A DNA stretch of 64,000 nt, taken from NCBI GenBank assembly GCA_020137815.1, contig CM035361.1, forward strand, positions 3,224,001 to 3,288,000, in the 5' to 3' direction. Positions 6,601 through 64,000 of the stretch are shown piece by piece (the stretch's first letter is position 1; each line of letters opens with the position of its first letter). Below the pieces are notes generated by a model that was not told where the DNA came from, did not search any database, and saw only the letters and a program-made list of their open reading frames with translations. This DNA is from Hormiphora californensis. Taxonomy: Eukaryota > Animalia > Ctenophora. A program made the position numbers and the translations under genes.

Positions 6601-6730
6601 ACGCTTTCAGCCACTCAGACAGACGTTTCAGACAAAGGTTGTCAGTCAAAAAAGCTTAGGATAGGTCAACATAGCCGTTAATTTTTCAGTTCCAACAATA
6701 TTAGTTGGTACCGGCACTTTAAACGTTTAA

Positions 6731-8841: not shown

Positions 8842-8970
8842 TTAAAGCTTTTCAGTTTTTCGGTTTTTTTGTTCACTACTCTCCTTCCGGCTTCCCGTAC
8901 GAACCACAATGTGTTTATCATTTATCCTTAGCATTATTCTCAAGCCCAGAATGTGATTTGAACAACCATT

Positions 8971-42514: not shown

Positions 42515-43136
42515 AATGGTTGTTCAAATCACATTCTGGGCTTGAGAATAATGCTAAGGATAAATGATAATCACATTGTGGTTCGTACGGGAAGCCGGAA
42601 GGAAAGCAGTTATAAAAACCGAAAAACTGAAAAGCTTTAAACGTTTAAAGTGTTGGTACCAACTAATATTGTTGGAACTGAAAAATTAACGGCTACGTTG
42701 ACCTGTCCTAAGCTTTTTTGACTAACAACCTTTGTCTGAGACGTCTGTCTGAGAGTCTGAAAATAATGATAATAATAATAGTAACAGTTTATATCCCGCA
42801 CTGACACAGTTTATATACAGACAACTCGTTTTCCTTAATTTGAAAGGGACTGCAGTAGACTGCCTGCTCCTAGCACGGTTCTCTGATAACGGTGAGTTAG
42901 TGGGGAACTATCCCACTTGGATAACATTATTACGGATGAAGTAGCAGCCGTCAGGATCTTCTGATCGTATCCTCTTCAAAGTGGACCTTAGATTATTATT
43001 ATTATTATTAAATCTAAAATGTATACATTGGATAAAATACAACATATACTGCCCCTTTTTGTGGGCTAAATTGATAGTCATAAGGTTCCTTTTGAAGTCT
43101 CTTTAGAGTACAAATTAGGGGAGACTTGACCCATAT

Positions 43137-44994
43137 GGTCAGTTTAAAGTACGTCTGTACACTTTTCGGGGTGCCTCAGTCATAATTTTATGACTGCTAT
43201 TACTAAAATCAATGCCCAGCGACATGTGGAGCAATTGAGACATCCAAATTTGGGTATTATAACCCAAATACTATGCTTAATAGTTTCAACCGATCAAATA
43301 CTTCATGGTCCAACCGATGTGGAGCCTATGACGAGGAGAAACCAGGCTTTAATGAAATCTCCATAGAGAAATAATCATAAATTATTTTTCATATTTTTTT
43401 AACCAAATCCATTAGCAATCAATCAAGGAATCCACACACCCCCGGTTGGGCCGGTTTTGACGCCCAACCTATGTGGAGCAATCATGAAAAGAGTGACTGA
43501 TTTTCGAAGTTCTATTTAGCTAAAATAATGAGCAAATTTTTACGACCTTACGACGGGAATATATTCGAAAACATTCAACTTATTGAACTTAGTAGCGTTT
43601 TTAAGTTTTACGAGCCCAACCAGAGTGGAGCAAATTTTTAAGTGAGTAATAGGGAAAATAAAATCACAAAATTGATTTTTACTGCCATTGTTTCAAATTT
43701 ATAGTCACCAGATATCATATAAACTGTTGTACTTGCTATTTACTAACTATAAAAATGATTTCCATTCAAAAATGGATGGCCCAACCGAGTGGATCCTTAG
43801 TTTTAAGTAAGGAGTTTCGAAATTGTTAAATTAAATAATATTGAAGCATATTAACGAATATTTTATCATTATTTCATCGAAGGGTATAGCAATAAACAAT
43901 TTGAACTAGTAAACAATGCGAAATATCCAGCCCAACCGTGTGGAGCACTGAAAAATAGCCTATGAGGGGCCTGTAAGTTTATTTAGATTAATCCTACCCA
44001 TTATTGCCCTATAGCTCCTCATGGTTGGGCACAGATATATCAAGAGGCTCCACATGGTTGAGATATTGTCTAACAAGCCAATAAATGGCCTAAAATTGAT
44101 TAAATCTCGATTTGTATCGTGGTTCAATCATTTAAAGTTCATTTCCAATACAGAGTGCTGCATGCATGGCGCTCAATAAGTGTTAGATCCACACTGGTTG
44201 GGCCGATTTTCAGGTTTTAATTATTTTATAAGTGCACATAATTGGTTATAAGAGCAACCCATAATGAATTCAGGGAATTAAACTCAATGTCCAACCGTGT
44301 GGAGTGTTTTGAATCGTTTAAAACCACTTTGCTCCACACAGTTGGGCCGAATAACACTTCAGCATGCTCCACAAGGTGGAAACATACATCATCTCCGATA
44401 TTATTGACACAGAATGATACTATTTTACATTATAGTGGAATTTTAACCAAGTATTAAAAGAATTTAGTAGTTAATAAATCTTTAGATTTTAGTCCACCTT
44501 TTTCAAAAGCCAGCTCCACATCGGTTGGGCAGTTTTGAGTATAAAATTCAAGTCTAAAAAATCAAAAATTGCATAGAGTTAACTCTTGTGAAAATCGCAT
44601 GATTCTATCGGAACGTTACACCCCGGTTGGGCCAGCTTGAAGCCAAAAATTTGGTCAAAATTGCCCAGCTCCACATTAGTTGGGCCTCCATTTCGGAAAA
44701 AAAGTGTCAGAAAATATTCGTCTTATTAACTAGATGCTTCAATAAAAAAACCAGAATTTTAGAAATTAAAATGTGGCCACTACAGCCCTGCTCCACAAAA
44801 AATGTGCTCCACAAAAGTTTGCACTAGTATCTCCGGCTCCACAACAGATATTGACTTCGTTCCTTCAGATAATGATCATTTATTAACTTTCTGACCAGAT
44901 AAAGTATTGAGAATTCTCTACACAATTAGTTATCATATCAACAAGCCTGTTTGTAAAATTTTGCTAATTTGTACAGACGTACTTTAAACTGACC
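43137..44994. mobile_element. 1.86-kb non-autonomous TIR element, 4-bp TSD (Sola-like?), inserted in the pogo left TIR
   Basis: ATAT|GGTCAGTTTAAAGTACGTCTGTACA...TGTACAGACGTACTTTAAACTGACC|ATAT. Confidence 0.85.
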
Positions 44995-45961
44995 ATATGG
45001 AACACTTGCCCAAATGGAATTTTTCTCTTGGGAGCCCAATATACGATTTTCAAGATTACTTCACCCTGGAATGTGATACAAATAGGCTCAGTACCATTTC
45101 CAGCCCTTGTAACTACCCATTGGACAGTCAATGAAATTTTTGGCGAACGAAAAAAACCAACAAAAAAAAACTAGAAATTTTGCCAGTCTGATACCATTTA
45201 TTTTGTGCACCCATGTTTACCGAACCAAAATCTATCGTACAGGAGTTGGACTTCAGACTTTGTTACAGCATATCTCGTCGATTTATTTTACATTAAACAG
45301 TTAACTTGGTAGGAAATCACTAAAACCTGAAGATACCCAATTTTGGTCAAATGGCATACTTTTTTGTATCAATATGGAATATTCCATTTGACCAAAACTT
45401 ACTATACCATTTTGGCAAAGTTTTACGTATTGCGCGTAATTTAATTAAGTTATCTGCTTTCCTGAGCCGCGCAGCACGGCAAGTCATTAATGAACCTTTT
45501 TTTAAATTTTCAAAATTTGGAAGTCATTTTGATCACGCTAGCCGGCAGAAAAAAGAATTTCTGTACTACCCTGGTGGGTCGTGTTATTTATTTCCGTACT
45601 ACTCTTTCTGATCCTGCGGTGTTGGGTTGTTGTTTCCGTACAACTCTGGCTGCTCCTGTTCTATAGTTAATGATACCATATTTCTTATTGCTACTATCCC
45701 GGATGTTCGGTGAGCTATCCCGCTTGTCATCCGGAAATCCAGTTTTGTTTATGTGCGGGAGAGAGATAGTGACGATAGCTAACACAACACTTGCCCTGCG
45801 TGCTTTTATTATTATTTGTAGATTCGTTGTTCCGGTTGTTCTGCTCTTTTTTGCATACCACTTCAAGCTGAACATATTTTGATTGGTTAATTGATTTATT
45901 GATTGATTGATCGGTGTGTTAATTCTGCAATTAACGTCTTCTATATATTAGAATCTGCTAG

Positions 45962-46177
45962 ATGCCGCGAACAACTCGCCCCTGTAACCACTGGATGTGT
46001 GGAAGGTGTAAGCTAGTTAACCGGGGGTCAGGGATCAAGTGTACTCGTTGTGGGGAGCTGAAGAAAAATGGCACGAGTTTGGAAAAGAGAGCAGGAGATT
46101 GGTTGTGTAGTTGTGGGGAGAACAACTTCCGTTGGAGGATAAACTGCTATCGATGCGACCTTCCAAAACCCCATTAG
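45962..46177 (+). CDS. 71-aa protein with two RanBP2-type zinc fingers, inside the pogo element
   Basis: WMCGRCKLVN....IKCTRCG and GDWLCSCGENNFRWRINCYRCD.PK; intronless. Confidence 0.75.
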   Translation: MPRTTRPCNHWMCGRCKLVNRGSGIKCTRCGELKKNGTSLEKRAGDWLCSCGENNFRWRINCYRCDLPKPH

Positions 46178-46239
46178 ACAATAATTCCTCCCTACTGCAG
46201 TCGTAATTCCATCACAGTTTATTACACCCGTCATCCATC

Positions 46240-47186
46240 TAGTAGAGTCGATAAGAACACTCACCTCCTCCGATTTCAGTAAAACTTCTCACATGCTAAA
46301 ATATGATAATGGAGGTACAAATACCGCTTATTTTAGGTCCAAAAAGTTTTTGGTTCGTTAATTATCGCTAATTGAAAAACGCCAAAAATGGGCTAAAATG
46401 GCCCTTAAGGTGGATTTGAAATTTTGGAGTTGGAACTCCAGACTTCGTACAGGTGTCCGCTAGGATGCCAATATGCACCACAGGCGGGCTCAGGCCTAAA
46501 TTCGTCCGAATTTTTGCGTAAGACCGGATGGCGTAAATCTTGGTCACGTGACCTCGGCTAACTTCTGAACCGCTCAAGTAAGGGATGTTTATAACCTGCT
46601 TAATCGATGCAGAATATGATGAAAATGACACGTTTTGACATCATTTTTCATCCCAGACGCACAGGAAAGACACAAATCGCCTTACAAAATTGACGCCATC
46701 TAGTCTCCCGCTCTTTTTTTGCAAAACTCTAACTTCTGAACCGTTGAAGTAAGGGAGGTTCATAGCCTGCTTAATCGATGCAGAAAGAAAAATAAATGAG
46801 AGGAAATGGCCTTATTTTTCATCTCCGGCGTGCAGGAAAGGCACAAATAGCAAAAAACTGATTTTTTGCCCAAATCACGTGACCAAAATTCACGCCATCC
46901 GGCCTTACGCAAAAATTCGGACGAATTTAGGCCTGAGCCCACCTGTGGTGCATATTGGCATCCTAGCGGACACCTGTACGAAGTCTGGAGTTCCAACTCC
47001 AAAATTTCAAATCCACCTTAAGGGCCATTTTAGCCCATTTTTGGCGTTTTTGAATTAGCGATAATTAACGAACCAAAAGTTTTTCGGACCTAAAATAAGC
47101 GGTATTTGTACCTCCATTATCATATGTTAGCATGTGAGAAGTTTCACTGAAATCGGAGGAGGTGAGTGTTCTTATCGACTCTACTA
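46240..47186. mobile_element. Palindromic Academ-like MITE
   Basis: ATC|TAGTAGAGTCGATAAGAACAC...GTGTTCTTATCGACTCTACTA|ATC (TAG termini, 3-bp TSD). Confidence 0.85.
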
Positions 47187-47313
47187 ATCTGTTTGTACTG
47201 CATTTTTAATCATTTTATTTCGGTTGAAGGTTGATTGTCTCAATGGTGTCCCTAACCTTACCCACTCCAATCTATTAAATGTAATCTCTACCTATCTCTC
47301 TCTCTAGCACTCC

Positions 47314-50300
47314 ATGGCACCAGTTTATCGGTATAACAAACGTTCAAGAACAACATCCCGTCAGTCATGGTCTCCAAATAGTATGAAGTGCGCCATCGCC
47401 GCCATCCACAACGGGGCATACGGGTATGATAGAGCGTCCAAGATTTATAATGTGCCGAAAGCCACGCTTTTTAGGAGGGCCAAAGGTACAAACAAGGTTG
47501 CCAGTGGAGTCCAAAAGGTTCTTGGTTCGGGGAGAACAGTGCTTACACGCGATATGGAGAAGAAATTAGCCGGCCATATATTAAAGATGGAGGAGATGCT
47601 ATTCGGTTTGGGGATTCGTGATGTCTGTCGGTTGGCGTACGAGTTAGCTGAACGAAACGGCCTGGCCCACAAATTTAATCGACGGACCAAAATGGCAGGG
47701 TACCATTGGTTTTATAGTTTTATGAGTAGGTTTCCTCATCTGTCGGTGAGAAAACCTGAATCTGTATCAGCTCAAAGGTCCCGATCTTTCAGTAAGAAGA
47801 ATGTTGACGAATTTTTTCATACGTACAAGATACTTCTGGATAAGGTCAAGTTTCTGGTCGTTGCGAGGATTTTTCACAAATTTTCATTTAGATATTTTAA
47901 TATGTTCCTATGATGACTGGTACTCATAATACCACTAGACCGGTGTACAATTGTTTACTCTAAATTTCTGTGAAAACTAGAACTCAATTGCTTGCTCTAA
48001 AGCAAAGTTATAGCCGTTTTAACACGTGCGGAGCAAAATTGTGCGGAGCCCCCTCTGGAGGTGATGTTTTCATCCTTTCTCCATGAAATTTTTGTATATG
48101 TTTAATCAAATTATTTCTACATATACTGTTTAAAAATGAAAAGTCGGGAACTCAAATTGTGCGGAGCACATCGATTTTTGTGGCAAATCTTACTCATTGG
48201 GGTTACTTACATTGACTTAACATTTTATTTATAAACTATTTGATTCTAGAGACATTTTAGGAGCTCATGGAGTCATCAGCTGGATCAATAAGTTTACTCA
48301 AATTAGTGTGGAGCCGATTTTTCCATATAACCAAAATATAGTCGTTGGCCGATCTGTAGTAATACTTCCAAATAGAGTAATAAGTCAAAAAGTATTAGGG
48401 GTAGCTTCTTTAAATAAGTGAATTAATTTGGCAAAACGATAGTGGAGCAAGATTCTTGTATATTTCGAAGATACTAACTCAAAATATGTGGAGCAAATAC
48501 TGATTTTTTGACAAAAACTGCTCCACATCGTTTGAGTTGCGGTTAAACCGGTTCTTGATTTAAAAAATTAGTTGTGCAGATAATTGGGTACCAACAACTT
48601 ACCATTTCAACCAGAAAAAGTTACTCAATTTGTGTGGAGGAGCCCCTAAAGGAGCCGTATCTGTGTCCAGACAGTCACAAAATTCGCCCAAAACCTTATG
48701 GCATGCCCTGTTTCTGATTCTCAGAGAGGAAAATCATTGCTCCCCTAGTTTTGAGTAAAGCTATACTAATGCTTGGTTAAATTATAACTAATATTTGGTT
48801 AAATACTCAATTGGTTGTAGTATAACTCGATTTATCAAGGCCAAAGCAACTGATGGTATTCCATGGTTTTATGTGTAATTGCTCCACACAATTTGAGTCC
48901 CATGATTAGGCAATATTATTACTGTAATATTATGGTCTGATGAACGTTATTTTGATGCAAATAAAACTTATTCTGTTATTATTCAAGGAGATAATTTATA
49001 CTGCGAAAATGGAGGGGGAAATCATGTTTTGCTCCACAAATTTTGAGTCATAAGATTAAATTACTGATAAAATAAGTACTGGTATGTTATTGTTGCCACT
49101 TAGCATACGTTTTTAGTTTGATTGCTTGTGAATTGAACCCGCAAAGTATCGAAGTAAAAAATAATAATTTGGACCCATGAATATAACACCTGCTCCTCAC
49201 AATATGAGCATATCAGGGTACATTTTTTTAGCATGGATACTTATTTTTAACATTTAGGAAAGGAGTTCGATTAATTTTAGAATCTAAAATTATGTTTATC
49301 TTTCCTCAAATGGGCAATAAAAAAGCTTCCCCTTCAAGCAGCTCTGGCTCCGCAAATTATGAGCAAATCGTTACTCATCGGTAATCACGGTTTAGTTTCA
49401 TAAATTATCTTAATATTTAAAAAGGTCCTACTGCTAAACTGATAAAACCTAAAAATCCAGAGAGCATTTAGCATCGTTGGGCTTGGGCTCCACATTATTT
49501 GAGTTTAAGTTCTAAAACGCATGTAGTATACTAATTTAAACATATTTACATAAGTATACTAAATTTTATGTTGATTCAAGTACTCTAAGATGTCCTAATA
49601 AAGGTTTTAAAAATTTTGGTGGAAAATCCAACACCAACTTTTCCCAAAATCCTCGCAACGACCAGAAACTTGACCATAAGCATTCGTTTCCACCCCACCT
49701 CATTTTCAATATGGATGAAAAGGGTGTAAGTACGGTTCCAAACTGTCCTCCTAAGATTATAGGCATGAGGGGTAAGAAACAGGTGGGAACAATGACAAGT
49801 GCAGAACGGGGAGTTAACACCACCGTTGTCGTATGTGGGAACGGGTCTGGAGAATTCATACCGCCGTATTTCATCTTCCCCCGTAAAAAGAAGAATCCAG
49901 AGTTCATGAAAAATGCTCCACAAGGTTCTGACTATCACGCCGAGACCTCTGGTTGGATGACCTATGAGGGGTTTAATCAATGGTTGAAATTCTTTATCGC
50001 AAGAGTCGGATGTACGGTGGAGAGGAAATGTTTAGTTATCCTTGATGGCCACATAACACATGTGAACAGCATAGCGGCGATTGAATTAGCAAGAGATAAT
50101 GGAGTGGAGCTCCTGAAATTTCCGCCACACTGTACACATAGAATGCAGCCCATGGACGTAACTGTGATGGGGCCTCTACAGACTGGATTTGCGAAACATT
50201 GTGCACTCTGGATGAGACAAAATCCTGGTTCCCAGATTAGTATTTACCAAATAGCTGAACTATTCGGGAAAGCTTTCGAGGGAACACGAATGACAGGAAA

Positions 50301-52970
50301 TTTAGCGTCCGGATTTAAAAAGTGTGGCATATGGCCGGTAAAGGAGGACATATTTGAAGGACAGTATGTGACAGCCCATCAGAACCCCTCAACAAGTGCC
50401 TTACCCCTGGGCCCTGGGCATCAGTCTGCCTCCGATCTCTCATCTGATGAAGGACATCCGGACACCAATTCCATTGACCCAGCAGACATAGTACCCCTTC
50501 CCACCATCACCTACAGTGGTGAAGGAAAACAACGGAGGAGAACCAACAGCAGTGCTGGTTCAGTGGTAATCACCAGTAGCCCGCACTTGAACAAGCTGAG
50601 ACTAGAGGACGAGAACCGGACCTTAAAAGAAGAGGTTAAAAGATTAAAAAGAGAACTGAAGGGTAGCAAGAAGACAATCCCCGATACCGACACGAGATCA
50701 GGAAAATCCTACAAGTGCAAGGCACGGGTGAGGAAACAACCACCTGCCGTGAACAGTAACACTGACGATGATCTCCCTCCTGTATCTCCAGTCCCACCAG
50801 GTAGGAAAAGAAAGTGTAAATGATAACTGGGTGTGAAGATTTACAGTTTTAATTCAATTCCATTCCTTTTTCACAACTCACGCCCCCTCCAGGTACAAGC
50901 AAGGGCAAGGCACGGGCCAGAAAACAACCACCTGCCGTGAACAGTAACACTGACGATGATCTCCCTCCTGTATCTCCAGTCCGACCAGGTAGGAAAAGAA
51001 AGTGAAATGATAACTGGGTGTGAAGATTTACAGTTTTAGTTCAATTCCATTCCTTTTTCACAACTCACGCCCCCTCCAGGTACAAGCAAGGGCAAGGCAC
51101 GGGCCAGAAAACAACCACCTGCCGTGAACAGTAACACTGACGATGATCTCCCTCCTGTATCTCCAGTCCGACCAGGTAGGAAAAGAAAGTGTAAATGATA
51201 ACTAGGTGTGAAGATTTACAGTTTTAATTCAATTCCATTCCTTTTTCACAACTCACGCCCCCTCCAGGTACAAGCAAGGGCAAGGCACGGGCCAGAAAAC
51301 AACCACCTGCCGTGAACAGTAACACTGACGATGATCTCCCTCCTGTATCTCCAGTCCCACCAGGTAGGAAAAGAAAGTGAACTGAAAACTGGGTGTGAAG
51401 ATTTACAGTTTTAGGCCCCTGTCTACCCTAATTCTGTTCCATGCATTTTTTACAACTCACGCGCACGTCCCTTCCAGTTACCGGCAAGTGTAAGGTACAA
51501 GCCAGGAAAAAGCTAACTTATCCCCCGAATCTCGACGATAATCTCCCTCCTGTATCCCCAGTCCCACCAGGTAGGAAAAGAAAGTGTAAATGATAACTAG
51601 GTGTGAAGATTTACAGTTTTAATTCAATTCCATTCCTTTTTCACAACTCACGCCCCCTCCAGGTACAAGCAAGTGCAAGGCACGGGCCAGAAAACAACCA
51701 CCTGCCGTGAACAGTAACACTGACGATGATCTCCCTCCTGTATCTCCAGTCCGACCAGGTAGGAAAAGAAAGTGAAATGATAACTGGGTGTGAAGATTTA
51801 CAGTTTTAGTTCAATTCCATTCCTTTTTCACAACTCACGCCCCCTCCAGGTACAAGCAAGGGCAAGGCACGGGCGAGGAAACAACCACCTGTCGTGAAAA
51901 TTGACGATAATCTCCCTCCTGTATCCCCAGTCCCACCAGGTAGGAAAAGAAAGTGAAATGATAACTGGGTGTGAAGATTTACAGTTTTAGGCTCTAGATC
52001 CGGTTTAAGTTAACTGGGTGTGAAAATTTACAGATTTAATTCAATTCCATTCTTTTTTCACAACTCACACCCCCTCCAGGTACAAGCAAGGGCAAGGCAC
52101 GGGCGAGGAAACAACCACCTGTCGTGAAAATTGACGATGATCTCCCTCCTGTATCTCCAGTCCCACCAGGTAGGAAAAGAAAGTGAAATGATAACTGGGT
52201 GTGAAGATTTACAGTTTTAGGCTCTAGATAGTAGATCCGGTTTAAGTTAGTTAGATCACACCCTGGTAAATGATAACTGGGTGTGAAGATTTACAGTTTT
52301 AATTCAATTCCATTCCTTTTTCACAACTCACACCCCCTCCAGGTACAAGCAAGGGCAAGGCACGGGCCAGAAAACAACCACCTGTCGTGAAAATTGACGA
52401 TGATCTCCCTTCTGTATCTCCAGTCCCACCAGGTAGGAAAAGAAAGTGAAATGATAACTGGGTGTGAAGATTTACAGTTTTAGGCTCTAGATAGTAGATG
52501 GGGGGGGGGGGGGTTCCAACCTATTTCTTGTATGTTTGTACAAAAATATACAAAAAAGTACAAAAAAATAAAAACAGTTTTATATGGTAATTTACCATTA
52601 CTAGCGCACCCATTGGGTGCGCCTCAAGTAAGGGCTTTTTGATAACCTATCCGGCTTCGCCGGGTGGTTCTTTTCGCCCCTTTTACCGTCAAAAACATGG
52701 TTGCCATGGCAACTGAATTGGTAACTATGGGGACTGGCGTCTTAAAATTCATTCGAAAATATAAACAAACTTCGACTGGAAGTTCCAAAAATGTAAACAA
52801 CAGCTTTGCAGCTTTGTGCACACAAAGTATTTTATGAAGGAGCAGTCTGTCGCGTAGATACCGCCTAACGAACGACCACTTCGACGTTCATCTCCAAATT
52901 ATAATAGAGACTAGAAAGCCCGTTGGTTGGACCCCGTTGATGTCTCTCTCTCCATCTCTCTCTCTTCCCC

Positions 52971-53051
<81 letters not shown>

Positions 53052-53330
53052 ACTCTCTAACTTCATCTCTTCATCATATCCGTGTCGGGCTGAAGAATAT
53101 GGAGGTTGGTAGAGTGACAGGGATGGTGATGCTAGAAAGCCCGTTGGATGGACCCCGTTGATTGATTGAACTCCGTTGATATCTATCTTTCTCTATCTCT
53201 ATTTTTCTCCATGTATCTCTCTATCTCGCTTTCCCTCTATCTCTCTATCTCTCTCGCTCTATTTAGCTCGCTGTCCCTCTATCTCTCTCGCTCCATCTCT
53301 CTCAGCTCCCTCTATCTCTCTTTGTCTCTA

Positions 53331-53419
<89 letters not shown>

Positions 53420-54496
53420 ATCATGTCGGGCTGAAGAATATGGAGGTTGGTAGAGTGGTAGGGATGGTGATGAATATCAAGGGTCTTTGTTAGATGGCTG
53501 CTTGAAACATGCCGAATTAGGTGATAAACATCTGTAGAATTGTAGCTGTGTAGAGTAATTATCGGGGGTACGTAGGTAGAATAGATCTGGAAATCATCGG
53601 GGCAGCAACAGTAGATGCCATCACACCTCAAAACACCGCAGGAACACACAACAAACAACCAACAACATGCACGTGCAGTATTCAAACCCTTGCCCACCAA
53701 CCATAACAACCCCTTGATTTGCACGGGCAAATGGGGCAAATTGTTGCACGCTAGTGTTGCAAGCTAGGATACTATTTCTTACCGAGAAAATTTTCTCGAA
53801 TCGTATTTTCTAAGCGAGAAATTTCCCCGAATCGCAATTTCTTACCGAGAAATTTTTCTCGAATCGTATTTTCTAAGCGAGAAATTTCCCCGAATCGCAA
53901 TTTCTTACCGAGAAAATTTTCTCGAATCGTATTACAAAAAAATACAAAAAAATAGGTTGGAACCCCCCCTAGTAGATCCGGTTTAAGTTAGTTAGATCAC
54001 ACCCTGGTAAATGATAACTGGGTGTGAAGATTTACAGTTTTAATTCAATTCCATTCCTTTTTCACAACTCACACCCCCTCCAGGTACAAGCAAGGGCAAG
54101 GCACGGGCCAGAAAACAACCACCTGCGATGAACACTGACAATTTTCCTGCTGCTCAAGATAGAGTTTATCCACAGAGTTTGAGACCCGGGCAGTTTGTTC
54201 TGGTCAAATTCGATGTAAAAGATGGGGCATGTCATTACGCCGGTTTTACTCGGGAAATGGTCACTTCTGAAGGAATCGAGATCAAGTTTCTGCGACGGGT
54301 TAGACGGGCTATAAACCCGTCTCGTACGAAACTAAGATTTGAGTACCCTTGCGAAGAAGATATTAAAAGGGTACCAGCGAAAGACATTGTGATGGTGCTG
54401 CAGGTACCGGAAGTGAGGCCGACATCTAGCAAGAGGATTTCAAGCCAGTTGATATTTGATGACCATAGATTTGAACATTTCTTCCCAATCTACTGA
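47314..54496 (+). CDS. pogo-family transposase (HTH-psq, CENP-B HTH, DD36D), interrupted at 47844-49679, then 8 repeat exons and terminal exon 54084-54496
   Basis: Removing the insert gives LLDKHSFPPHLIFNMDEKG. Catalytic motifs NMDE/LDGH/QPMD. C-terminal GQFVLVKF...YAG...IKFLRR...FEYP..ED domain. Confidence 0.88.
47844..49675. mobile_element. 1.83-kb non-autonomous TIR element, 4-bp TSD, related in design to the 43137 element
   Basis: ATAA|GGTCAAGTTTCTGGTCGTTGCGAGGATTTT...AAAATCCTCGCAACGACCAGAAACTTGACC|ATAA. Confidence 0.9.
50705..52490 (+). repeat. Tandem ~188-bp intron+exon units of the transposase
   Basis: Repeated CCACCAG|GTAGGAAAAG...CCCCTCCAG|GTACAAGC. Confidence 0.9.
52500..53969. 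mobile_element. TIR element with poly-G termini and 8-bp TSD, in the last transposase intron
   Basis: TAGTAGAT|GGGG...TTCCAACCTATTT...AAATAGGTTGGAACCCCCCC|TAGTAGAT. Confidence 0.85.
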
Positions 54497-55687
54497 ATTT
54501 CTATTCCTATTTTATCTTTTTTAGATATTGAAAACTGTTGTCGTAATAGTATTAGCAGGGGCCATTCAAAAGGGACGTCCGTGATTTTTGTTCATTTTTC
54601 GACCCTCGGCCTCCATCCCCTTGTCCGAGTTTCGTGCACAATGCACACTCTCGGTCGAATTTCCCCTCTCCCTACCCTCGGACGTCAGTTTTGAATGGTC
54701 CCACAGTAAATAAAAGAGGGAGGCAAATAAACTGGCTGTAACAGTTCGTGTTCCACGTTCGCGTGTGTGTCCCACTTTCGTGTCTGACCTGTCCTTCGTC
54801 CGAATTCACCATCAGTAACGCGCTGAGGAAATGAACCAATCAAAGTTCATGTGCGCCATGTGTGGGTGCGCCTTTTTAGGAGGCGCGTTCGTTTGTTCCC
54901 GGGAACCAGATGCGTTTAGTCCATACCTTCTGTGTTTGTTATCGTTTTTATCCATGTTTGTACCTCGTTGGGTTATGGGAAGGGCCCAGTGAAGATGAAA
55001 ACAGTGCAGGTTCATTTATATGATGGTGCCGTAACCGTTTAACTCATTGGGATAGTTTTAAGGTCAAATGGGATAGGCCATATTGGCAAAACATTTGGTC
55101 ATATGGGATATCCCATTTTGCCAAAATGGACTATCCCATTTAGCCAAATAAATGCTATCCCGTATAACCTAATTTTTAAAACGCTGTACATTTTTTTTCC
55201 CAAATGGAATACCAGCATATCTCTACTAAGGGCTTATTTTAAGCTTTAAATGACACATTGGGGAAATAAAATGAATGATTTAATGACCATCTACCAAAAA
55301 ATTTTAGGTATTAGACTAAATCGTTGAACAGGACAGACCTAAACAAGATAGTGGTTCATATGGGTCAAGTCTCCCCTACATGTAGCAGGTCAGCCACATT
55401 TAATTACCCCCCTGCTAACCCAGTATCGTCCATTCGGATTGTCTCGCCTCAGTCCTTTCACTGTATCAACGAGAGTTTTCCGCTCTCGCTGCTCCTCCGG
55501 TGTTAGGTCGGGGGAGAGAAACACCGAGGAGAATTTCTCTGAATCTCGGAGCTGTTTTGCTTTTCTTAGAAGTTGTAACAAAGTTTCCCTCCTTTCAAGT
55601 GTAACAATTACTGGTCTCGGTCGGTTATCAGTCTTTACCTTAGAGCTTTTTGCTCTTTCAGTTCAGAGGGCGTAAGATCCGGAGAGA

Positions 55688-56791
55688 TTTATTTATTTAT
55701 TATTTATTAAATCTATATAATAATTTACACAGTTTGATGTATAAAATTATCAGCCCCTTTTTGTGGGCAAAAATCGGTTGATCAAAGATATGAGTCCATT
55801 TAAGAGTCCAGTTTATATAGATAGTCTATGAAAAGTTTATCGCTCCTTTCCGTATCCGAAATTGTCTTTCGGGATTCGATTCCCTTAACTCCTTCAATGT
55901 AAGGTGGAGTTCCCTCCTCTCCGTTCTCTCTGCGAGTGACATATCTCTTGACAAGTATACACCGCAGTACGATTCGGACTGTTTCAACTGCCTAGCCTTC
56001 TGGAGAAGGCTCAGCAGCATTTCTCTACTCTGTAGCTTCACGATCACGGGTCTCTCCCTTCCTTCCCGTTTCAAACCCACCCTTTTAGCTACAACAATAG
56101 GTTTCTCATCAAGCTCAGCCAAAACATTCTCTATCTCACATTTCAACACAGATTCAGATTCCGCCTCAACTTCCGGTAGACCAAACACCATCAGATTTTT
56201 GGATCTGTCTGGATCTGGACTCGAATCAACTTTTTTGCCATGAGCTTTCCCTTCATCTTTCTTGATATTTTTCGGTGCAAGAGCAGACCTACAATTCTGC
56301 GTCAAGACCGTTGAGAAAGAACGCAGATCTTTCTGTACTGTTTCGGTTACTCGATGTAGTTGAGTGTCCTGGAGCTCAATGACCTGCTCTTGTAACCTAA
56401 CAGTCTTTCTCAACAGGTCATCCATCTCAACTCTCAATATCTCCTCTTTTTTCTGCAACTCCAAACTCTTTCTCAACAGTTCATCTCTTTCTTCCTTTAA
56501 TTCCAACTCAGGCGACTTCTCGACGTTGAAATGATGTTGGAAGTACTTTAGAAGTGGCAAGGTCGACAGAAATACATCTTCTAATACAGATGCCAAATCA
56601 CGTTTCGAGTGGGATGAGTGGATATTGAAAGATGTCGGTATTTCCCTGATATCCTCGGGGCTAGCCCTTAACTTTCTGGTTAAATCCGGTGAAGGAATCC
56701 CTGCATACTTGACCATGGTCAGGATCCGGCTCGCATACCAATCCAAATCAGCCTGAGTCAGCTCCTCTTGATGTACTGGAATAACTGTCAT
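55688..56791 (-). mobile_element. ORF1-only derivative A; ORF 56791-55826 (321 aa, coiled coil + L1-like RRM/CTD-type ORF1)
   Basis: NLMVFGLPE...RPVIVKL...VYLSRDMS.AER..R. The stop is followed by a 138-nt 3'UTR and (TAAA)n tail; no RT. Confidence 0.85.
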
Positions 56792-57514
56792 ATAATAATA
56801 ATAATAATAATATCGAATATTTATATCCCGCTATCATGCGTTAAATATGCTAGTTCACTACTCGTTTAAACTAGAACTTAAAGATATACTTAAAGAACAC
56901 CGAGATTATCGTTAAAACTAACACCGCGTCTATAGCGGCCTTCTCATAGCCAGAGGAATGCCATTCAAGCTAATTTTGATCAAGAAATAATAATAAAGAG
57001 AGAAGATTTAGTCCGAGGAAAAAAGTATAAAAAATACGTTATGGTATAAAAAAGAAGAAAAGATAGATGATTGTGATTTGAATATTGTTAATTAGTAAGA
57101 ATTAGGGTGGAGTCATGTTGAAATAGTGTGAGGGAAGTGAAATAAGTTGAAAAAGTTCATCGAAGTGGATAATGTGGAAAGGCAGTGACTAAGGTTGGAC
57201 AAAATTGATACAACAAAAAAAAAAAAAAAAAAAAGAAAGAAAGAAAAGTGAGTGATAACAGCTGGGTAGCTTGAGTCAGATTGAATAATACAGATTACTT
57301 TTTGATTAAAAATAATAAGTTAATTGGGTGATTAAAATAATAAATTAGTGGATTAAGAATATTTTTATCATAAAAATAAATTATAATCAGTTGTAGCAAA
57401 ATAAAGTGATGTGCTGTGATTAAATTGTGTGTGTGTGGGCTTGTCTTTACGGATCTAGTCTTGTCTTTTCTTTAGCTCAAAGTTAGTCAACTAGGACCCA
57501 TAGACAAAGATGTA

Positions 57515-60500
57515 TTATCGGCAGGATGGGTTTAGAATCTTGGCCTTCGATTTACGTGGTTGAGTCACTGTGTTCGTACCACTGTTACTATCTGGATAAG
57601 CGACGGTGAAAAGATGAGTTTTCAACATTTGCTTGAAAGTTTCAAGAGATGATACTTCTCTTAGGCTTTTAGGTAGTTTGTTCCAAATCTTAGGTCCGCA
57701 TACACTGAACGCTTTCTGAGTGGTAAGATATTTTGTATCATGGCGTTTTTCCACTAGGGTTAGGTCATCATCAAGACGAACTTTTCTGGCCTTCGGCTGT
57801 CTGCGCATAATCATGTCTGACAGATACTCAGGCACAAGTCCATGTATACATTTATAGACCAGGAGGCAGACTTTGAAAACGATTCTTTGCTCGACCGGAA
57901 GGAAATGAAGTTTCTTCCTCATTTCAGTAACTCCTCGCTTTCCTTTCGATCCATAGATAAATCTAGTGGCACTGTTTTGCACTTTTTGTAGTCGTTGCAA
58001 ATCCCGTTTTGAAAGTCCAACGAGTAGTCCATTACCAAAATCTAGCCTTGAGTGAACAAGTTGATGTACAAGTTGAGTCTTTAGCTGTACAGTGAGTCCT
58101 TTCCTGATCCTCCATAGATTTGCCAGCTGGCTCCAACACGACTGGATAACTCGGGACACATGGGATGACATTGAGAAGGTTTGGTCAAACCAGACACCTA
58201 AATTTCGAGCTTCTGTGGATGGTTCAGTCGGGATTTTGTCACTCTTTTGCAGGAAGATCGATGTCGGATTAGGTGACTTGTCTGCTTTATTGTTGATCAC
58301 GACAATTTCGGTTTTACCTGAATTTAGCTTTAGATAGTTAGCTTTCATCCACCATTTGATGTGTTGAAGGCAGTCTTGGATTTTCTCAAAAATGATGTCC
58401 TCATTGGCTGGATCAAAGCTGATATACAACTGGGTATCATCTGCATACATGTGCACGTGTAGCCCATAGATACCTGCAATGTCTTGAATCTCTCGTGTAT
58501 ACATAATAAAGAGGATGGGACCCAAGATTGATCCTTGAGGGACACCTATCTCGATTTCGATTGAAGGAGACATTTCATCTCCTGTATCAACCGAAGACGT
58601 TCTACCAATCAAGTAGGATTTGAACCACTTTAAGGCCGTCTGCTTGATGCCATAGTAATTATACAGCTTGTCTAACAGAGTGGTATGTTTAACAGTATCG
58701 AAAGCTGCGCTTAAATCAAGCAACAGTAGAATCACTTTTGATTTGCTATCCATCAACAGAAGAATGTCATTGAAGATCTTAAGTGTCGCTGTCTCACAGG
58801 AATGATACTTCCGGTAGGCCGATTGCTTGGTGGGCAAGAGCTTGTTTGCTTCGAGATATTCAATCAGTTGTAATGAAGCGCATTTTTCAACAACTTTTGA
58901 GACAAAGCTAAGGTTGCTTATCGGCCTATAACTGTTTAGTTCCTCAGAATCCAGATCCTTACCTTTAAACGACGGACGGATGATGGCTTCTTTGAAGACT
59001 TTTGGAAATACACCTTTTGTTAAACTGTCGTTAACAATCCGTGATAACACAGGTATAAGCTCAGGAAGTGCGTCACTGACCATACTTGAAGGCATTGGAT
59101 CCAGAGAACAATGCTTCTTGTTCATATCACGAATAGTTCTGGCCAGTTCCTCATCGGTCACAGGTCTAAACTTAGTAAGCGATGATGTACAGGTTATTGG
59201 TTCAGGTTGAGTTGTTGGGGTTGGAACATCCTCAGCCTCAATCACAGAGTATATTTTTGTTACTTTAGCTTTGAAGAACTCGTTGAATCTGGTTGCTAGT
59301 GGAGTTGCTTCCTTTTTTGATGGCAGTGTTGAAGGTGTTTTTTCCTTTCCAAGCAAACTGTTGACCACTCTGTGTGTAGATTTCGGGTTTCCTTTTACTC
59401 GTTCTAGTTTTTTACTGACAAAACTAGCTTTGGCATTACCAAGAACTTTGGATGCGAACTTGCTGGTGCTTTTCCAACAGTGGTATTTTAAGACAAGTTT
59501 CTTAGGATTTGTCTTCTTTAGACGAGCACGTCTCCAGCGTCGTTCGGCTCCTCTACGTATTCGACGAGCATTTTGGCAAGTAGGCGTTCTTATCCATTGG
59601 GGTTGGTCTGGGTGCTTTATCCTCTTTTCTTCTTCAGGGGCAACTTTGTCTGTGATGGACTGGAGAGTTCTGTTGTATAGCACAACACATTCTTCTTGGT
59701 CGGCTGGAAGCGCTTCAGAAAGTTTGGAGTTTCTAATGAGTTCACGAAGATTCGCTGGGTCAACTTCTTTGAAATTTCTGCATTTTTTCAATACTTCGTC
59801 GTCCTTCATCTTTAGTGGTATTCCTGCTGTGCACTTTACTAAATAGTGGTCTGGGGCAGGAGGCACAGGGTATGACTCTATTTCAGTTACTTCAATTCCA
59901 TCTGGCATTCCATGAAATAAATGTGGAATGTGTTCTTCATTTATTTCGTCAAGTTTGCTGCTGCGGAACGGGGCACCAATGGTGTCAGAGAGTGGGGCAA
60001 TATCCTGGGTAAGGATAAGATCCAGTGTGCCTCCTTTGATGTGGGTCGGTCCAGTTACTTTATTTCTCCAACCAAACTGGTTCAGAAGTTCATTGAATTT
60101 TCGCGTTTGGGGATCTAGGTTGTCCTCGACATGAATATTGAAGTCTCCACATATTAAACAGCGCTCTTTCCTCTCTGCTAATTTCAGAAAAAGATCCTCT
60201 AGTTCATCTAGAAACGCAGTAAACTGGCCCGAGGTGCCAGGCCGGTACACTACAACTATCCTGGTATTAGTAGGTTCTTTGAGGAGAACCTCAAGGCATT
60301 CGAACTGCTTAAACTTGTGACAATACTTACTTGTTTTCGTCCTCCTTCTGGTAACTAAAGCTACACCACCTCCTCTACCTACACGTGGATGTGATACTAT
60401 GTTGAAACCTGCTTCTTTGAAAAGAGCACAGAGAGCACCATCGTCCTTTTTCATCCATGTTTCTGTTAGTGCAAAAGCGTCTAAGTCTTCATCTACTGCA

Positions 60501-60613
60501 AGTTCCAGGATATCGATTGCTTTGTTCCGCAGAGAAAAGCAGTTAAGGAGCCCAAACCTGAGCCTTCTGGACACAGTTAGTTTTTTGACATGTACTGGAG
60601 ACGGATGGGGCAT
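57515..60613 (-). CDS. LINE ORF2: apurinic endonuclease + reverse transcriptase (1032 aa, intact)
   Basis: LTETW, GDFN, PTH..G.TLDL, DH; YRPISNL, LLDLSAAFDTV, GVPQGSILGP, YADDTQLY. Confidence 0.97.
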   Translation of the reverse strand: MPHPSPVHVKKLTVSRRLRFGLLNCFSLRNKAIDILELAVDEDLDAFALTETWMKKDDGALCALFKEAGFNIVSHPRVGRGGGVALVTRRRTKTSKYCHKFKQFECLEVLLKEPTNTRIVVVYRPGTSGQFTAFLDELEDLFLKLAERKERCLICGDFNIHVEDNLDPQTRKFNELLNQFGWRNKVTGPTHIKGGTLDLILTQDIAPLSDTIGAPFRSSKLDEINEEHIPHLFHGMPDGIEVTEIESYPVPPAPDHYLVKCTAGIPLKMKDDEVLKKCRNFKEVDPANLRELIRNSKLSEALPADQEECVVLYNRTLQSITDKVAPEEEKRIKHPDQPQWIRTPTCQNARRIRRGAERRWRRARLKKTNPKKLVLKYHCWKSTSKFASKVLGNAKASFVSKKLERVKGNPKSTHRVVNSLLGKEKTPSTLPSKKEATPLATRFNEFFKAKVTKIYSVIEAEDVPTPTTQPEPITCTSSLTKFRPVTDEELARTIRDMNKKHCSLDPMPSSMVSDALPELIPVLSRIVNDSLTKGVFPKVFKEAIIRPSFKGKDLDSEELNSYRPISNLSFVSKVVEKCASLQLIEYLEANKLLPTKQSAYRKYHSCETATLKIFNDILLLMDSKSKVILLLLDLSAAFDTVKHTTLLDKLYNYYGIKQTALKWFKSYLIGRTSSVDTGDEMSPSIEIEIGVPQGSILGPILFIMYTREIQDIAGIYGLHVHMYADDTQLYISFDPANEDIIFEKIQDCLQHIKWWMKANYLKLNSGKTEIVVINNKADKSPNPTSIFLQKSDKIPTEPSTEARNLGVWFDQTFSMSSHVSRVIQSCWSQLANLWRIRKGLTVQLKTQLVHQLVHSRLDFGNGLLVGLSKRDLQRLQKVQNSATRFIYGSKGKRGVTEMRKKLHFLPVEQRIVFKVCLLVYKCIHGLVPEYLSDMIMRRQPKARKVRLDDDLTLVEKRHDTKYLTTQKAFSVCGPKIWNKLPKSLREVSSLETFKQMLKTHLFTVAYPDSNSGTNTVTQPRKSKAKILNPSCR

Positions 60614-61890
60614 TGCGGATCAGCTGCATTGTGAGTATGAGCAAATGATTGAATGGATGGGTTACGTGATTTAGAACAATTAGAACATTTAAAGGCAGAC
60701 CAATTTTTCTTGTTAGGGCATTCTCTGGCAGAGTGCTTCTCAGAACAACGGAAGCATGTTGGATCCTTCGCTTTACAATCACTCGCATAATGACCGAAAT
60801 TTTGACACTTAAAACATTGTTTTACAAATACTCGCTCTTCTACAAAACAGTTATAATTGCCAACATGAATAGAACCACTGCTAAGAATCAGATCACCAAC
60901 AGGTTTGCTGACCTTCAACCCAATAGTGGCTTCATTCTCATTTCGACTGTGCCTCTGAAACGACACAACAGACATCTTCTCTCCTCTTTCCAACAATTCA
61001 GCAACTCTTGGGTTAAGCTCACAAATAGAATCTAAAATCATCGTATCTGTCTCATCCCTGTCAGTAATGTGCTTAGCAATAAAAGAAACATCAGCACCTC
61101 GAATAGATAGTTTAGGCTCATGTACAAATTTTCTCATATCAACATTCACATTTTGAGATGCGACTTTTGTCACTGCCTCGTTCATTTCGTCAGCACTTTT
61201 GAACCAGTATTGTACTGATCCGTCTTTCTTATTCTTCTTATACTCAGTAGGAATCTTGGCAAGTACACCATTAGCACTGTTGATATCATTAGCTTCTCCG
61301 GATATAACAAGCCGTGCACTGCCCAAATGAGCCTCAGAATAAGGCACAGAATAGGGCACATTTGTTTGTCCATCAGCGGCTGCAATTGGCTCTTTTTGTT
61401 TAGCAACTTCGGTAGACACGGTTGATGTTATAACAGCAGCGATTTGTTCCTCAAATTTCCCTAGCATAGATTGCTCAAATGTTGCCAGTTTATCCTCAAG
61501 AATCCTCTGGGTTAAAGGGGAAGGCTCATCTTCATCCTTGTTGTTACAGGTAGGACAGAACCAAGCTAGACCCTCGTTCTGATTTATGAGGGCACACATT
61601 CTATCATCATCCAGTGTCTTAGAGCATGACTTGTTTCGGCACGTTATTGTATTGTCTCCGGTTAGAGTTGATGGGGCATTGGAGGACGCATCAGTTTGAG
61701 CCTCTACTAGATCTTTGGACAGTTTAAACGACTGCTTCAGTAGCTTCAGAAGGACTGCACGAGACGGATTGTCAGCCGGGGGTTTGTTGGTACCTTTTAG
61801 GACATAGGTTAGTAGTCCTTTTGCCTCTAGGTCATTCCCCAAGCTTATCACCTTATCGCTCAGCTTTATCATCTGCTCCTTGTTTATCAT
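60577..61890 (-). CDS. LINE ORF1 with partial PHD-like motif and three Cys/His knuckles
   Basis: WFCPTC; CFKCQNFGHYASDC, CFRCSEKHSAREC, CSNC...H....PQC. Met 61890 is conserved in the second copy, where the upstream ATG frame is closed. Confidence 0.9.
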   Translation of the reverse strand: MINKEQMIKLSDKVISLGNDLEAKGLLTYVLKGTNKPPADNPSRAVLLKLLKQSFKLSKDLVEAQTDASSNAPSTLTGDNTITCRNKSCSKTLDDDRMCALINQNEGLAWFCPTCNNKDEDEPSPLTQRILEDKLATFEQSMLGKFEEQIAAVITSTVSTEVAKQKEPIAAADGQTNVPYSVPYSEAHLGSARLVISGEANDINSANGVLAKIPTEYKKNKKDGSVQYWFKSADEMNEAVTKVASQNVNVDMRKFVHEPKLSIRGADVSFIAKHITDRDETDTMILDSICELNPRVAELLERGEKMSVVSFQRHSRNENEATIGLKVSKPVGDLILSSGSIHVGNYNCFVEERVFVKQCFKCQNFGHYASDCKAKDPTCFRCSEKHSARECPNKKNWSAFKCSNCSKSRNPSIQSFAHTHNAADPQCPIRLQYMSKN

Positions 61891-61955
61891 GACTATCGAT
61901 GTCGGTTTTCGTGTTATCTGCCCTTCGGGGCGGTCACATAGCATTCATCTTCCTG

Positions 61956-61997
61956 CTCAAATTAATTTGTTTAAAGTAGTGTTGAAAAGTTTGAAAC
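61956..61997 (-). other. Spliced-leader exon fused to the LINE 5' end
   Basis: GTTTCAAACTTTTCAACACTACTTTAAACAAATTAATTTGAG|CAGGAAGATG. Confidence 0.85.
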
Positions 61998-63451
61998 AGC
62001 CGAAAACTGTTTGGAGTCTTTGAGGTTTCGTGCCTTTCTGAGGAGCGCGAGGAGAGTCGCTCTCTTCTCCAGGGATACTAAGAGCGGTCTAGGGCGCTTC
62101 TCATTTCTTTCGCCGATGCGTTTTATCGTAGTCACTTGAAAGCGTGCACGGGCAACGGAGCAAACACGCTTCTGGCATTAGACTTAAAAGCTCAAATTCA
62201 AATTAAATTCAAATCGTGAAATTAAAACAACATCAGAAGCATTTTTCGAGTTCAAGTTCAAATCGGAAGTTAAAAGAAGAAGACAAAGAACCACTTTTCG
62301 GAAGTGAAACCACTTTTCGGAAGTGAAACTTTTGAATTTTTTAAAAAAACTGGCTTTTTTAAATTTATTAATCAAAATATGCGCGGCGCCTTCACTTAAT
62401 CGAATTTGCGCTGCCTTTTAAACGGTGCCCGCAAAAAATTCCAATAAACGATGCCAAAAACGGCGCGCATTCGTGGTTACCCTCGCCGCGTTGCTGGACG
62501 AGTTCACGTCGGATTTTTTGAAGTTGTCACCCCCCTTTTCGTGCGCGGAATGTTTTTGCGCGTCACATCACATGTTAACGTGTGGTGTGCGCGTCAAAAT
62601 TGATAAATTTCACATGCGCGGTCATTTTGGGGTGACAACTTCAAAAAATCACGTTTGGCACGACCAAAAATTTAAACTTGAACTTTTTAGTTGGAATGCG
62701 CTGCAGCCCCCTCATGCGCGCACCCCCGCAACGAGGGGACTGGAGGGAATGCCGCGCGCGCGTTTGGCCTGATCCCGGCTGGGTCGAAGATAACTTTGCG
62801 GTCGAAAAAACGGCGGTGCTTATAACTTTGGCTCCTGAAGTCCGTTTGACTTGATTCTTTCACCAGTTGTTAGATCTGACGATTATCTACCTTGCTGTTT
62901 TTGAGAGAAGTTAATTGGACTTAAGGAGGCTGAGCAATAGCCGTTGAAAGATGGGTTGTTTTCAAAAAGTGACGTCACAGATTCTTGCAGGGACACCTTT
63001 TTTAAAATTTCATTCAAATTTTGATTTTACCGCACTCGATTTTGCGGAGTTTGGTTCATATCTCCTGTTCCTGATAAGATAGAGACCTGAAACCGGTTGC
63101 ATTTGAAAGCTGTTATCTTCCTCTTTCCAACGCTACCAAAACGATTTCTGTACCTTATCTGGAACCGGAGATATGATTGATTATGTATTCCCCCCTAGCG
63201 CGGTATTCCCTCCAGGCCCCTTATATTATATTATAAGGGGCCTGCAACGTATGCCAAACTTTTTAGAAAACAGTTTTTGTCGCAAGTTTCTCTGACATGC
63301 GACACAGACTGAAGACCCCTCGTGTACCGACCTCTGTGGAACGACCACCGTAAAGTCCATTTTTATTCAACTGTTCACCCTCCAACTCGTGCGCGTACGA
63401 TATTTTAATTTACGCTGCGCGCGCTGCACGTTAACATGTGATAGACGCGCA

Positions 63452-64000
63452 AAACTTTCAACACTACTTTAAACAAATTAATTTGAGGAAGATGAATGCT
63501 ATGTGACCGCCCCGAAGGGCAGATAAACACGAAATCCCTGACATCGATAGTCATGAAGAACACGGAGAAGATGATAAAGCTGAGCGATCAGTTGGCAAGC
63601 CTGAAGAATGAACTAGAGGGAAAAGGACTGCTAACCTATGTCGTAAAAGGTACTCACAAGCCCGCTTCCGACAACCCAACGCGTGGAGTCCTGTTAAAGC
63701 TCCTAAAAAAGGCATATAAACTGTCCGAAGAGCTAGTAAATGCCCAAACTGACGCGTTCTCCAATGCACCATCAACTGTAACTGGAGAAACTACAATCAC
63801 GTGCCGTAACAAGTCGTGTCCTAAGACGCTGGATGATGACAGAATGTGTGCCCTTATAAACCAGAACGAGGGTCTGGCTTGGTTCTGTCCTGCCTGTAAT
63901 AACAAGAACGATGAGCCATCCCCTCTAACACAGAGGATTCTTGAGGATAAACTGGCGACATTTGAGCAATCAATGCTAGGGAAGTTTGAGGAACAAATCG
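63452..64000 (+). mobile_element. Second LINE of the same family (diverged subfamily): SL 63452-63487, ORF1 from 63553 runs off the window
   Basis: AAACTTTCAACACTACTTTAAACAAATTAATTTGAG|GAAGATG. MKNTEKMIKLSD...WFCPAC is homologous to the ORF1 at 61890. Confidence 0.9.

What the first reader, a model, noticed from the sequence alone, without database searches (positions are those of the whole stretch)
42763..62136. Russian-doll nest of ORF1-only retroelements, all sense, inserted ~50 nt apart
Seen: element C (~420 bp) was hit by element B (8-bp TSD ACCTTAGA) and, ~50 nt away, by element A plus the full LINE. All four are on the same strand. A, B and C encode diverged homologues of the same ORF1 C-terminus, and the stop is followed by ~140 nt and a tail, with no RT. 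Inference: a family of half-LINEs that prefers to insert into its relatives. For promoterless SL-dependent elements, sense nesting would create polycistronic retroelement arrays resolvable by trans-splicing.
Basis: partly seen in the sequence, partly recalled or inferred. Interest (0 to 1): 0.8.

Follow-up and report, generated by a model that had tools for sequence, protein, structure and literature searches.

The report
Leader-capped half-LINEs nested in comb jelly
Three related jumping genes that encode only an RNA-packaging-type protein and no copying enzyme sit nested with a full LINE in comb-jelly-type DNA; a complete relative starts with the host's spliced leader, so they likely spread as leader-capped passengers of LINEs, while a preference for landing in each other is not shown.

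Summary
The nest is real. An empty paralogous site and sequencing contigs fix every junction: C (416 nt, TSD TTTCA) carries B (8-nt TSD) and, 51 nt away, LINE+A; B carries a pogo-like transposon. A, B and C encode diverged LINE-1-type ORF1 proteins followed by a 120-140 nt end and a microsatellite tail. Found here: half-LINE families share a ~40-nt head motif with the autonomous LINE, C also shares its 3' end, A and B share another 3' end, and the ORF1 is under purifying selection (dN/dS about 0.2). Not supported: self-targeting and polycistronic arrays. Strand and spacing are unremarkable for 2-3 events (P 0.125-0.25), three other insertions hit non-relatives, four DNA elements pile into the same spot, and A, B and C have lost their leader. 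ORF1-only LINEs are known (HAL1, HeT-A, Ag-Sponge); leader-capped ones in a ctenophore are a new variant and may explain part of its dispersed leader copies.

The parts
62137..62141 (-). 5' copy of C's target-site duplication (TTTCA)
   Evidence: single copy at the empty paralogous site 6605-6609
61994..62136 (-). Element C, 5' piece (5'-truncated ORF1; family proteins 318-345 aa)
   Evidence: other copies continue upstream of 62136
61956..61997 (-). DNA copy of the spliced leader heading the LINE; GTTT (61997-61994) is shared with C
   Evidence: same sequence as the published ctenophore leader (PMC8527503); heads unrelated contigs in runs X13 and X22
61917..61955 (-). ~40-nt head motif (core ACCGCCCC-R-AAGGGCAGA) shared by both LINE copies, L001, and A- and C-family relatives
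   Evidence: loose end at 61917
60577..61944 (-). LINE ORF1, 455 aa, zinc knuckle; not homologous to the A/B/C ORF
57515..60613 (-). LINE ORF2, APE endonuclease + reverse transcriptase, open (L2-like C-terminus, motif recalled)
56792..57514 (-). LINE 3' region ending in GCGGGATATAAA, 7 nt, (TAT)n tail; same end motif and spacing as C
55688..56791 (-). Element A: ORF1 321 aa (56791-55826), lacking at least 6 N-terminal codons, head and leader; two-hairpin 3' end; (TAAA)n tail
   Evidence: (P0001)
55645..55687 (-). Element C, middle piece; about 3 nt of C lost at the LINE+A site (inferred from family protein P0218)
55637..55644 (-). 5' copy of B's 8-nt TSD (ACCTTAGA on +)
55377..55636 (-). Element B, 5' piece (last 81 codons of a 352-aa ORF1 family, stop at 55390-55392)
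   Evidence: 98.8% to P0075
43118..55376 (+). pogo/Tigger-like DNA transposon (HTH_psq + DDE_1, 20-nt TIRs, TA duplication) inside B's 3' UTR, itself holding four inverted-repeat-bounded elements and a tandem array
42993..43115 (-). Element B, 3' end (GCCCACAAAAAGGGGC hairpin, second hairpin, (TAA)n tail)
42985..42992 (-). 3' copy of B's TSD
42763..42984 (-). Element C, 3' piece: ORF1 end, 3' UTR, LINE-like end motif and (TAT)n tail
42758..42762 (-). 3' copy of C's TSD
6243..6736 (+). Paralogous empty site of the whole nest
63450..64000 (+). Second leader-headed LINE copy (85% identical), inserted in a non-ORF1 target; runs off the window

Best explanation
A, B and C are 5'-truncated copies of ORF1-only LINE derivatives whose complete form, seen in one relative, is spliced leader + short head + LINE-1-type ORF1 + LINE-type 3' end, and which are likely copied in trans by the reverse transcriptase of autonomous LINEs. 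Shown: the anatomy, the nesting order (C, then B, then pogo into B; LINE+A into C), the leader and missing ORF2 in L001, the ORF1p fold, purifying selection on the ORF, and shared heads and tails. Inferred: the RNA is trans-spliced each cycle, since the leader stays identical while the bodies diverge and its junction falls at different AGs; the 3' end recruits a partner RT (the window's L2-like family for C, an unseen partner for A and B); ORF1p packages its own RNA. Inferred, about 45%: the LINE landed just behind the head of a full-length A and resolved its 5' end by pairing with A's leader and head, deleting them. Inferred: the pile-up reflects a transposon-dense sink and a high-copy C family, perhaps with weak target-sequence preference, not family-specific homing; this locus is not a working polycistron.
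For: L001: leader at 462-499, ORF 548-1504 (318 aa), (TAA)n tail to about 1621, host flanks on both sides, no ORF2. Of 63 database rows with a complete (>=300 aa) family ORF, longest contig median 1311 nt, 2 of 63 >=3 kb, 0 >=4 kb; LINE ORF1 relatives 3 of 4 >=3 kb (Fisher P 0.0008). Top Foldseek hits are human LINE-1 ORF1p (E 1.9e-6); VIA top hit 2w7a Z 10.0, rmsd 2.7, 85 aligned. dN/dS A vs L001 0.24 over 316 codons, 0.20 over 229. A-B 3' similarity beat 2000 of 2000 shuffles; C-LINE was reached by 14 of 2000, and the 12-mer occurs only twice in the window, each 7 nt before a TAT tail. Head motif in L001, both LINEs, 7 A-family proteins and C-family P0220 (8 of 280 N-termini, 0 hits beyond residue 45). 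Non-relative targets: C, L001, second LINE. Four inverted-repeat elements inside the pogo.
Against: Only one complete copy with flanks was seen, and it is an A relative at about 65% protein identity (P0004-type), not A, B or C themselves. Contig lengths are indirect: rows are not independent and the control has 4 rows. Under uniform insertion and assumed copy numbers a doubly hit C would be rare (expected 0.001-0.007 per genome; 0.14 with 20-fold local enrichment), so some targeting is not excluded. No partner LINE with the A/B 3' end was found. The C/LINE 3' end shows no folding signal (z 0.58 and -0.3). The LINE clade rests on a recalled motif.
Confidence: 0.7

Rival explanations
1. The half-LINE system homes in on its own relatives in sense orientation and builds arrays that trans-splicing can resolve.
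For: Two or three sense hits within one 416-nt element; rare under uniform insertion with assumed numbers. Shared leader and head give about 80 nt of homology (85% L001 vs LINE) that could favour sense 5' joins. B's site and L001's site are alike (42 of 20000 random sites score as well; about 0.013 after 6 comparisons; post hoc).
Against: Strand P 0.125-0.25 and spacing P 0.23. 0 of 3 insertions not selected for nesting (C, L001, second LINE) hit a relative; L001 shares B's site likeness yet is not in a relative; A's site does not match it. Unrelated DNA elements accumulate in the same spot. A, B and C have no leader here, so the array cannot release complete elements.
Confidence: 0.15
2. LINE+A is one chimeric insertion: RT primed on A RNA at the site in C, then jumped to the LINE RNA's tail, or a source locus with the LINE upstream of A was transduced. 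C was then hit only twice. This changes the junction story, not the identity of the elements.
For: LINE tail abuts A directly, with no TSD and no A remnant upstream of the LINE; one target site with about 3 nt lost and 4-nt microhomology at the leader.
Against: A breaks about 9 nt behind the head motif that it shares with the LINE, which is what homology-resolved insertion would leave; template jumping more often starts from an RNA's 5' end (recalled).
Confidence: 0.5
3. A, B and C are retrocopies of domesticated host ORF1-like genes, or sub-genomic RNAs of LINEs that do carry ORF2, not self-standing elements.
Against: Microsatellite tails, not poly(A); conserved LINE-type 3' ends and heads; at least three families at 38-49% protein identity; 0 of 63 rows on a contig of 4 kb or more.
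Confidence: 0.08

Closest known systems
HAL1 (half-L1) of mammals (PMC5753468 and PMC5786205, passages; Bao and Jurka 2010 not held)
   Same: Non-autonomous, encodes only ORF1p of the coiled coil-RRM-CTD type; arose repeatedly.
   Different: HAL1 derives from the L1 clade in mammals; here the tails are microsatellites, the ends match an L2-like LINE with an unrelated ORF1, and complete copies start with a spliced leader.
HeT-A (Jockey clade) and Ag-Sponge (CR1 clade), ORF1-present non-autonomous LINEs (PMC5786205, passage)
   Same: ORF1 only; depend on an autonomous partner; keep LINE ends. HeT-A forms same-strand arrays (recalled).
   Different: HeT-A arrays are head-to-tail at chromosome ends (recalled), not nested in the coding region; no leader; no dedicated target shown here.
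L2/CR1 LINEs with exchangeable ORF1 types (PMC4120745, passages)
   Same: Type II (L1-like) and type I (CCHC) ORF1s both occur in L2 and CR1; ORF1 swapping is proposed to arise from truncated insertion into another element.
   Different: Here the type II ORF1 travels without ORF2, bracketed by a head and (for C) a tail shared with a CCHC-type LINE.
Leader-bearing transposon transcripts in Hydra (PMC12220107, passage) and 718 dispersed leader copies in a ctenophore genome (PMC8527503, passage)
   Same: Transposon RNAs use host trans-splicing; leader copies are scattered through ctenophore DNA.
   Different: The passages read do not describe leader-headed genomic LINEs or half-LINEs; here 2 of 4 leader copies in the window head LINEs, the other two head a short repeat, and L001 heads a half-LINE.

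Membership tests
ORF1-present non-autonomous LINE (HAL1/HeT-A/Ag-Sponge kind) | Single ORF homologous to a LINE ORF1p | tested here: met
   Foldseek top 11 hits are LINE-1 ORF1p; VIA Z 10.0. Pfam and sequence search of PDB gave no hit.
ORF1-present non-autonomous LINE (HAL1/HeT-A/Ag-Sponge kind) | Complete copy lacks ORF2 | tested here: met
   L001 complete with both flanks; indirect for the B and C families.
ORF1-present non-autonomous LINE (HAL1/HeT-A/Ag-Sponge kind) | Marks of target-primed retrotransposition: tail, 5' truncation, TSD or small deletion | tested here: met
   Tails, TSDs of 5 and 8 nt, truncations.
ORF1-present non-autonomous LINE (HAL1/HeT-A/Ag-Sponge kind) | Ends shared with an autonomous partner | tested here: inconclusive
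   Met for C (head and tail shared with the window's LINE); head only for A; no partner with the A/B tail found.
HAL1 in the strict sense | Derived from an L1-clade element, poly(A) tail (tail type recalled) | tested here: not met
   Tails are (TAA)n, (TAAA)n and (TAT)n; ends match a LINE with an L2-like ORF2. It works like HAL1 but is not filed as HAL1.
L2 clade (the autonomous LINE) | RT phylogeny with L2 references | not testable with these tools
   No reference set on hand; APE + RT shown; the L2-like C-terminus and 3' end are recalled motifs.
Target-specific LINE systems (R1/R2, Tx1, HeT-A, SL-gene elements) | One conserved insertion site | tested here: inconclusive
   1 of 6 site pairs alike (B vs L001, 42 of 20000); the other 5 pairs not; no site resembles the leader.
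Spliced-leader trans-spliced RNA | 5' leader identical to the host leader, joined at an AG | tested here: met
   shown on DNA copies. Trans-splicing of the element RNA itself is inferred.

The most novel reading that the evidence does not exclude
Comb jellies host a modular LINE system in which a renewed spliced leader plus a shared 40-nt head and LINE-type tails bracket exchangeable ORF1 cargo; because every complete copy begins with the same ~80 nt, incoming cDNAs pair with resident relatives, giving sense-biased nesting and ORF1 swapping, and these elements make up most of the hundreds of leader copies scattered in ctenophore genomes.
Probability: 0.2. Interest if true: 0.75.

Novelty: new variant of a known kind. 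Interest (0 to 1): 0.52.

Why it matters
It gives a concrete, testable source for dispersed spliced-leader copies in ctenophore genomes (718 reported, PMC8527503), which can confuse gene and operon annotation. It adds young, multi-family ORF1-only elements under selection, useful for asking why half-LINEs keep ORF1p. The shared heads and tails around unrelated ORF1s show a possible route for the ORF1 swapping inferred in L2/CR1 evolution. These ORFs are invisible to Pfam and get fused into host gene models.

Tried and rejected
No genome is held, so no genome-wide count. Protein-pattern scans for A relatives found none in metagenome, viral or GTDB contigs (0 of 600, 71 and 149 pattern matches). 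Motif scans: 0 in viral contigs, 0 in GTDB, 1 in metagenomes. Pfam and the PDB sequence search did not recognise the ORF. The C/LINE 3' end and the head motif gave no folding signal (z -0.3 to 0.84). Read depth is no copy number and was used only to say that C looks more abundant than A. One search skipped the repeat at 56785-56819, so what lies upstream of A's start in other copies, and whether the LINE-A junction recurs, stays open. Rfam found no ribozyme at 3200-3620. Earlier-findings look-ups by place and by sequence were empty. Dropped before the contig count: rows under 300 aa, rows without a contig, and cluster 10 (a distant family).
Full report
Observation. Read on the minus strand, 62136-42763 is one insertion stack. 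A diverged duplicate of the flanks at 6243-6736 lacks the stack and has a single TTTCA where the filled site has one at each end. Element C totals 416 nt in three pieces. B sits in C between two ACCTTAGA copies, the only two in the window. 51 nt upstream, C is split by a leader-headed LINE (61997-56792) followed directly by element A (56791-55688). B is split by a pogo-like transposon (HTH_psq and DDE_1; TIRs at 43118 and 55376) that holds four more inverted-repeat-bounded elements. Public contigs laid on 55300-62300 (4 of the 22 listed runs) show C without B, B without the pogo, and upstream continuations of B and C, so both are 5'-truncated. X1 may be the window's own source; X5 and X13 are other studies.

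Host. The leader matches the one printed for the ctenophore Hormiphora californensis (PMC8527503, passages), heads unrelated contigs in runs X13 and X22, and a source names a close protein relative as Pleurobrachia bachei. I take the window to be from a pleurobrachiid comb jelly.

The protein. A's 321-aa ORF has no Pfam or PDB sequence hit. Its model (11 sequences, mean pLDDT 71.6, pTM 0.34) has a long helix, an RRM and a small C-terminal domain; the top 11 Foldseek hits are human LINE-1 ORF1p, as are the top 3 VIA rows. This is the type II ORF1 also found in L2 and CR1 (PMC4120745, passages). A profile finds 3602 representatives at E<=0.001. Full-length family proteins exist for A (P0001, 98%, six more N-terminal residues), B (P0075, 352 aa) and C (P0218-P0220); the families are 38-49% identical. 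The LINE's ORF1 is a different, zinc-knuckle type. dN/dS between A and L001 is 0.24 (0.20 from residue 90), with synonymous sites near saturation.

Complete form. One metagenome contig matched the A/B 3' motif. L001 reads host flank, leader, about 50 nt of head, a 318-aa ORF, about 95 nt, a (TAA)n tail, host flank, with no ORF2. Its flanks had no tblastn hit to the family proteins then held or to the LINE ORFs. Indirectly, 63 rows with a complete family ORF lie on contigs of median 1311 nt, none 4 kb or longer, whereas 3 of 4 LINE-ORF1 rows lie on contigs of 3 kb or more (rows are not independent; rows under 300 aa, rows without contig and one distant cluster were left out).

Shared ends. A, B and L001 share an invariant GCCCACAAAAAGGGGC hairpin, a second AT-rich hairpin of variable sequence and AGATTTAA before the tail (z -1.75 to -2.65). 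C instead shares GCGGGATATAAA, 7 nt before a TAT tail, with the LINE. At the 5' end L001 and the LINE are 85% alike over 80 nt including the leader. The head motif, translated, starts 7 A-family proteins and C-family P0220, whose QEDESDVTAPKGR compares with the LINE head's QEDECYVTAPKGR; two X1 contigs follow the LINE head to 61917 and continue with codons matching P0220's next residues. So the C family likely has the LINE's head and tail around an unrelated ORF1.

Mechanism. Inferred from these: leader-capped element RNA is translated into ORF1p, its 3' end recruits a partner LINE's ORF2p, and target-primed reverse transcription yields mostly truncated copies, with complete ones carrying the leader as DNA. 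The leader's 29-nt core is identical in all four window copies and L001 matches 37 of 37, while the two LINE bodies are 85% alike, and the join falls at different AGs (leader-CAGGAAG, leader-GAAG, leader-TTTCAG); this favours renewal by trans-splicing over inheritance. An internal promoter in the head is not excluded; a shared 5' promoter is known for L1Tc and NARTc (PMC1874656, start of abstract in the search listing). For LINE+A there is no TSD, about 3 nt of C is lost, and GTTT is shared at the leader join. A breaks about 9 nt behind the shared motif. I put insertion into a full-length A with homology-resolved 5' end at about 45%, a template jump at 35% and transduction at 20%; these odds are judgement. 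One search skipped this junction, so it stays open.

Is nesting targeted? With 2-3 events, all-sense has P 0.125-0.25 and the spacing P 0.23. C, L001 and the second LINE sit in non-relatives, and three database gene models join family ORFs to other sequence, two to recognisable host domains (PB1/PDZ, PSF3). DNA elements crowd the same spot. Against my reading: with assumed copy numbers a doubly hit C is rare under uniform insertion, and the B and L001 sites are more alike than 19958 of 20000 random sites (1 of 6 pairs, post hoc), which hints at a weak sequence preference. The polycistron idea fails at this locus because only the LINE keeps a leader.

Known and new. ORF1-only LINEs are known from L1 (HAL1), Jockey (HeT-A) and CR1 (Ag-Sponge) (PMC5786205, PMC5753468, passages). 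About 30% of Hydra transposon long reads carry a leader (PMC12220107, passage). Six searches listed no paper on ctenophore half-LINEs or leader-headed genomic LINEs; the library lacks most subscription journals and Repbase, Bao and Jurka 2010 was not held, and no supplements were read, so repeat libraries may already hold these families. Unchecked notes of this scan report similar leader-headed LINEs in other lineages; they are leads only. Verdict: real, a new variant of a known kind, interest 0.52.

Noticed in passing
window 3284-3534: Two head-to-head leader copies in a 250-nt palindrome, each followed by CTGATGA...GAAAC, a hammerhead-like core (recalled as typical of Penelope-like elements); Rfam gave only generic hairpin matches.
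   Followed up: partly
window 63450-64000: Second leader-headed LINE copy on the + strand, 85% identical; its leader joins 3 nt further in (lacks CAG), as alternative trans-splice acceptors would give.
   Followed up: partly
window 43118-55376: pogo-like transposon with split but open transposase frames, holding inverted-repeat elements at 43131-45000, 46240-47186, 47841-49678 and 52507-53969 and a ~180-nt tandem array at about 50700-54130 in the transposase's 3' part.
   Followed up: partly
window 61224 and 61956 (run X1): A joint links the leader to an AG inside LINE ORF1, skipping 731 nt; it may be a retroposed, internally trans-spliced LINE RNA, but rests on 1 contig with 20 letters on the short side.
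   Followed up: no
window 6243-9624 vs 62509-62149 and 42762-42049: The flanks of the nest are duplicated in inverted orientation earlier in the window, each copy with different later insertions.
   Followed up: partly
window 55637-55648 / 42973-42984 and L001 450-461 / 1622-1633: B's and L001's insertion sites share AGG-x-CCACTTT-(A)-GAAG; 42 of 20000 random sites score as well.
   Followed up: partly
L001 409-438 and window 62690-62719: A 30-nt, 87% match between L001's left flank and the repeat upstream of the nest (E 6e-4).
   Followed up: no
proteins P0025, P0079: Gene models fuse the half-LINE ORF1 to host PB1/PDZ and PSF3 domains, probably mis-annotation of insertions in or near host genes.
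   Followed up: partly
window 34570-41200: Large palindromic satellite-like block of short internally repeated units bounded by inverted repeats.
   Followed up: no
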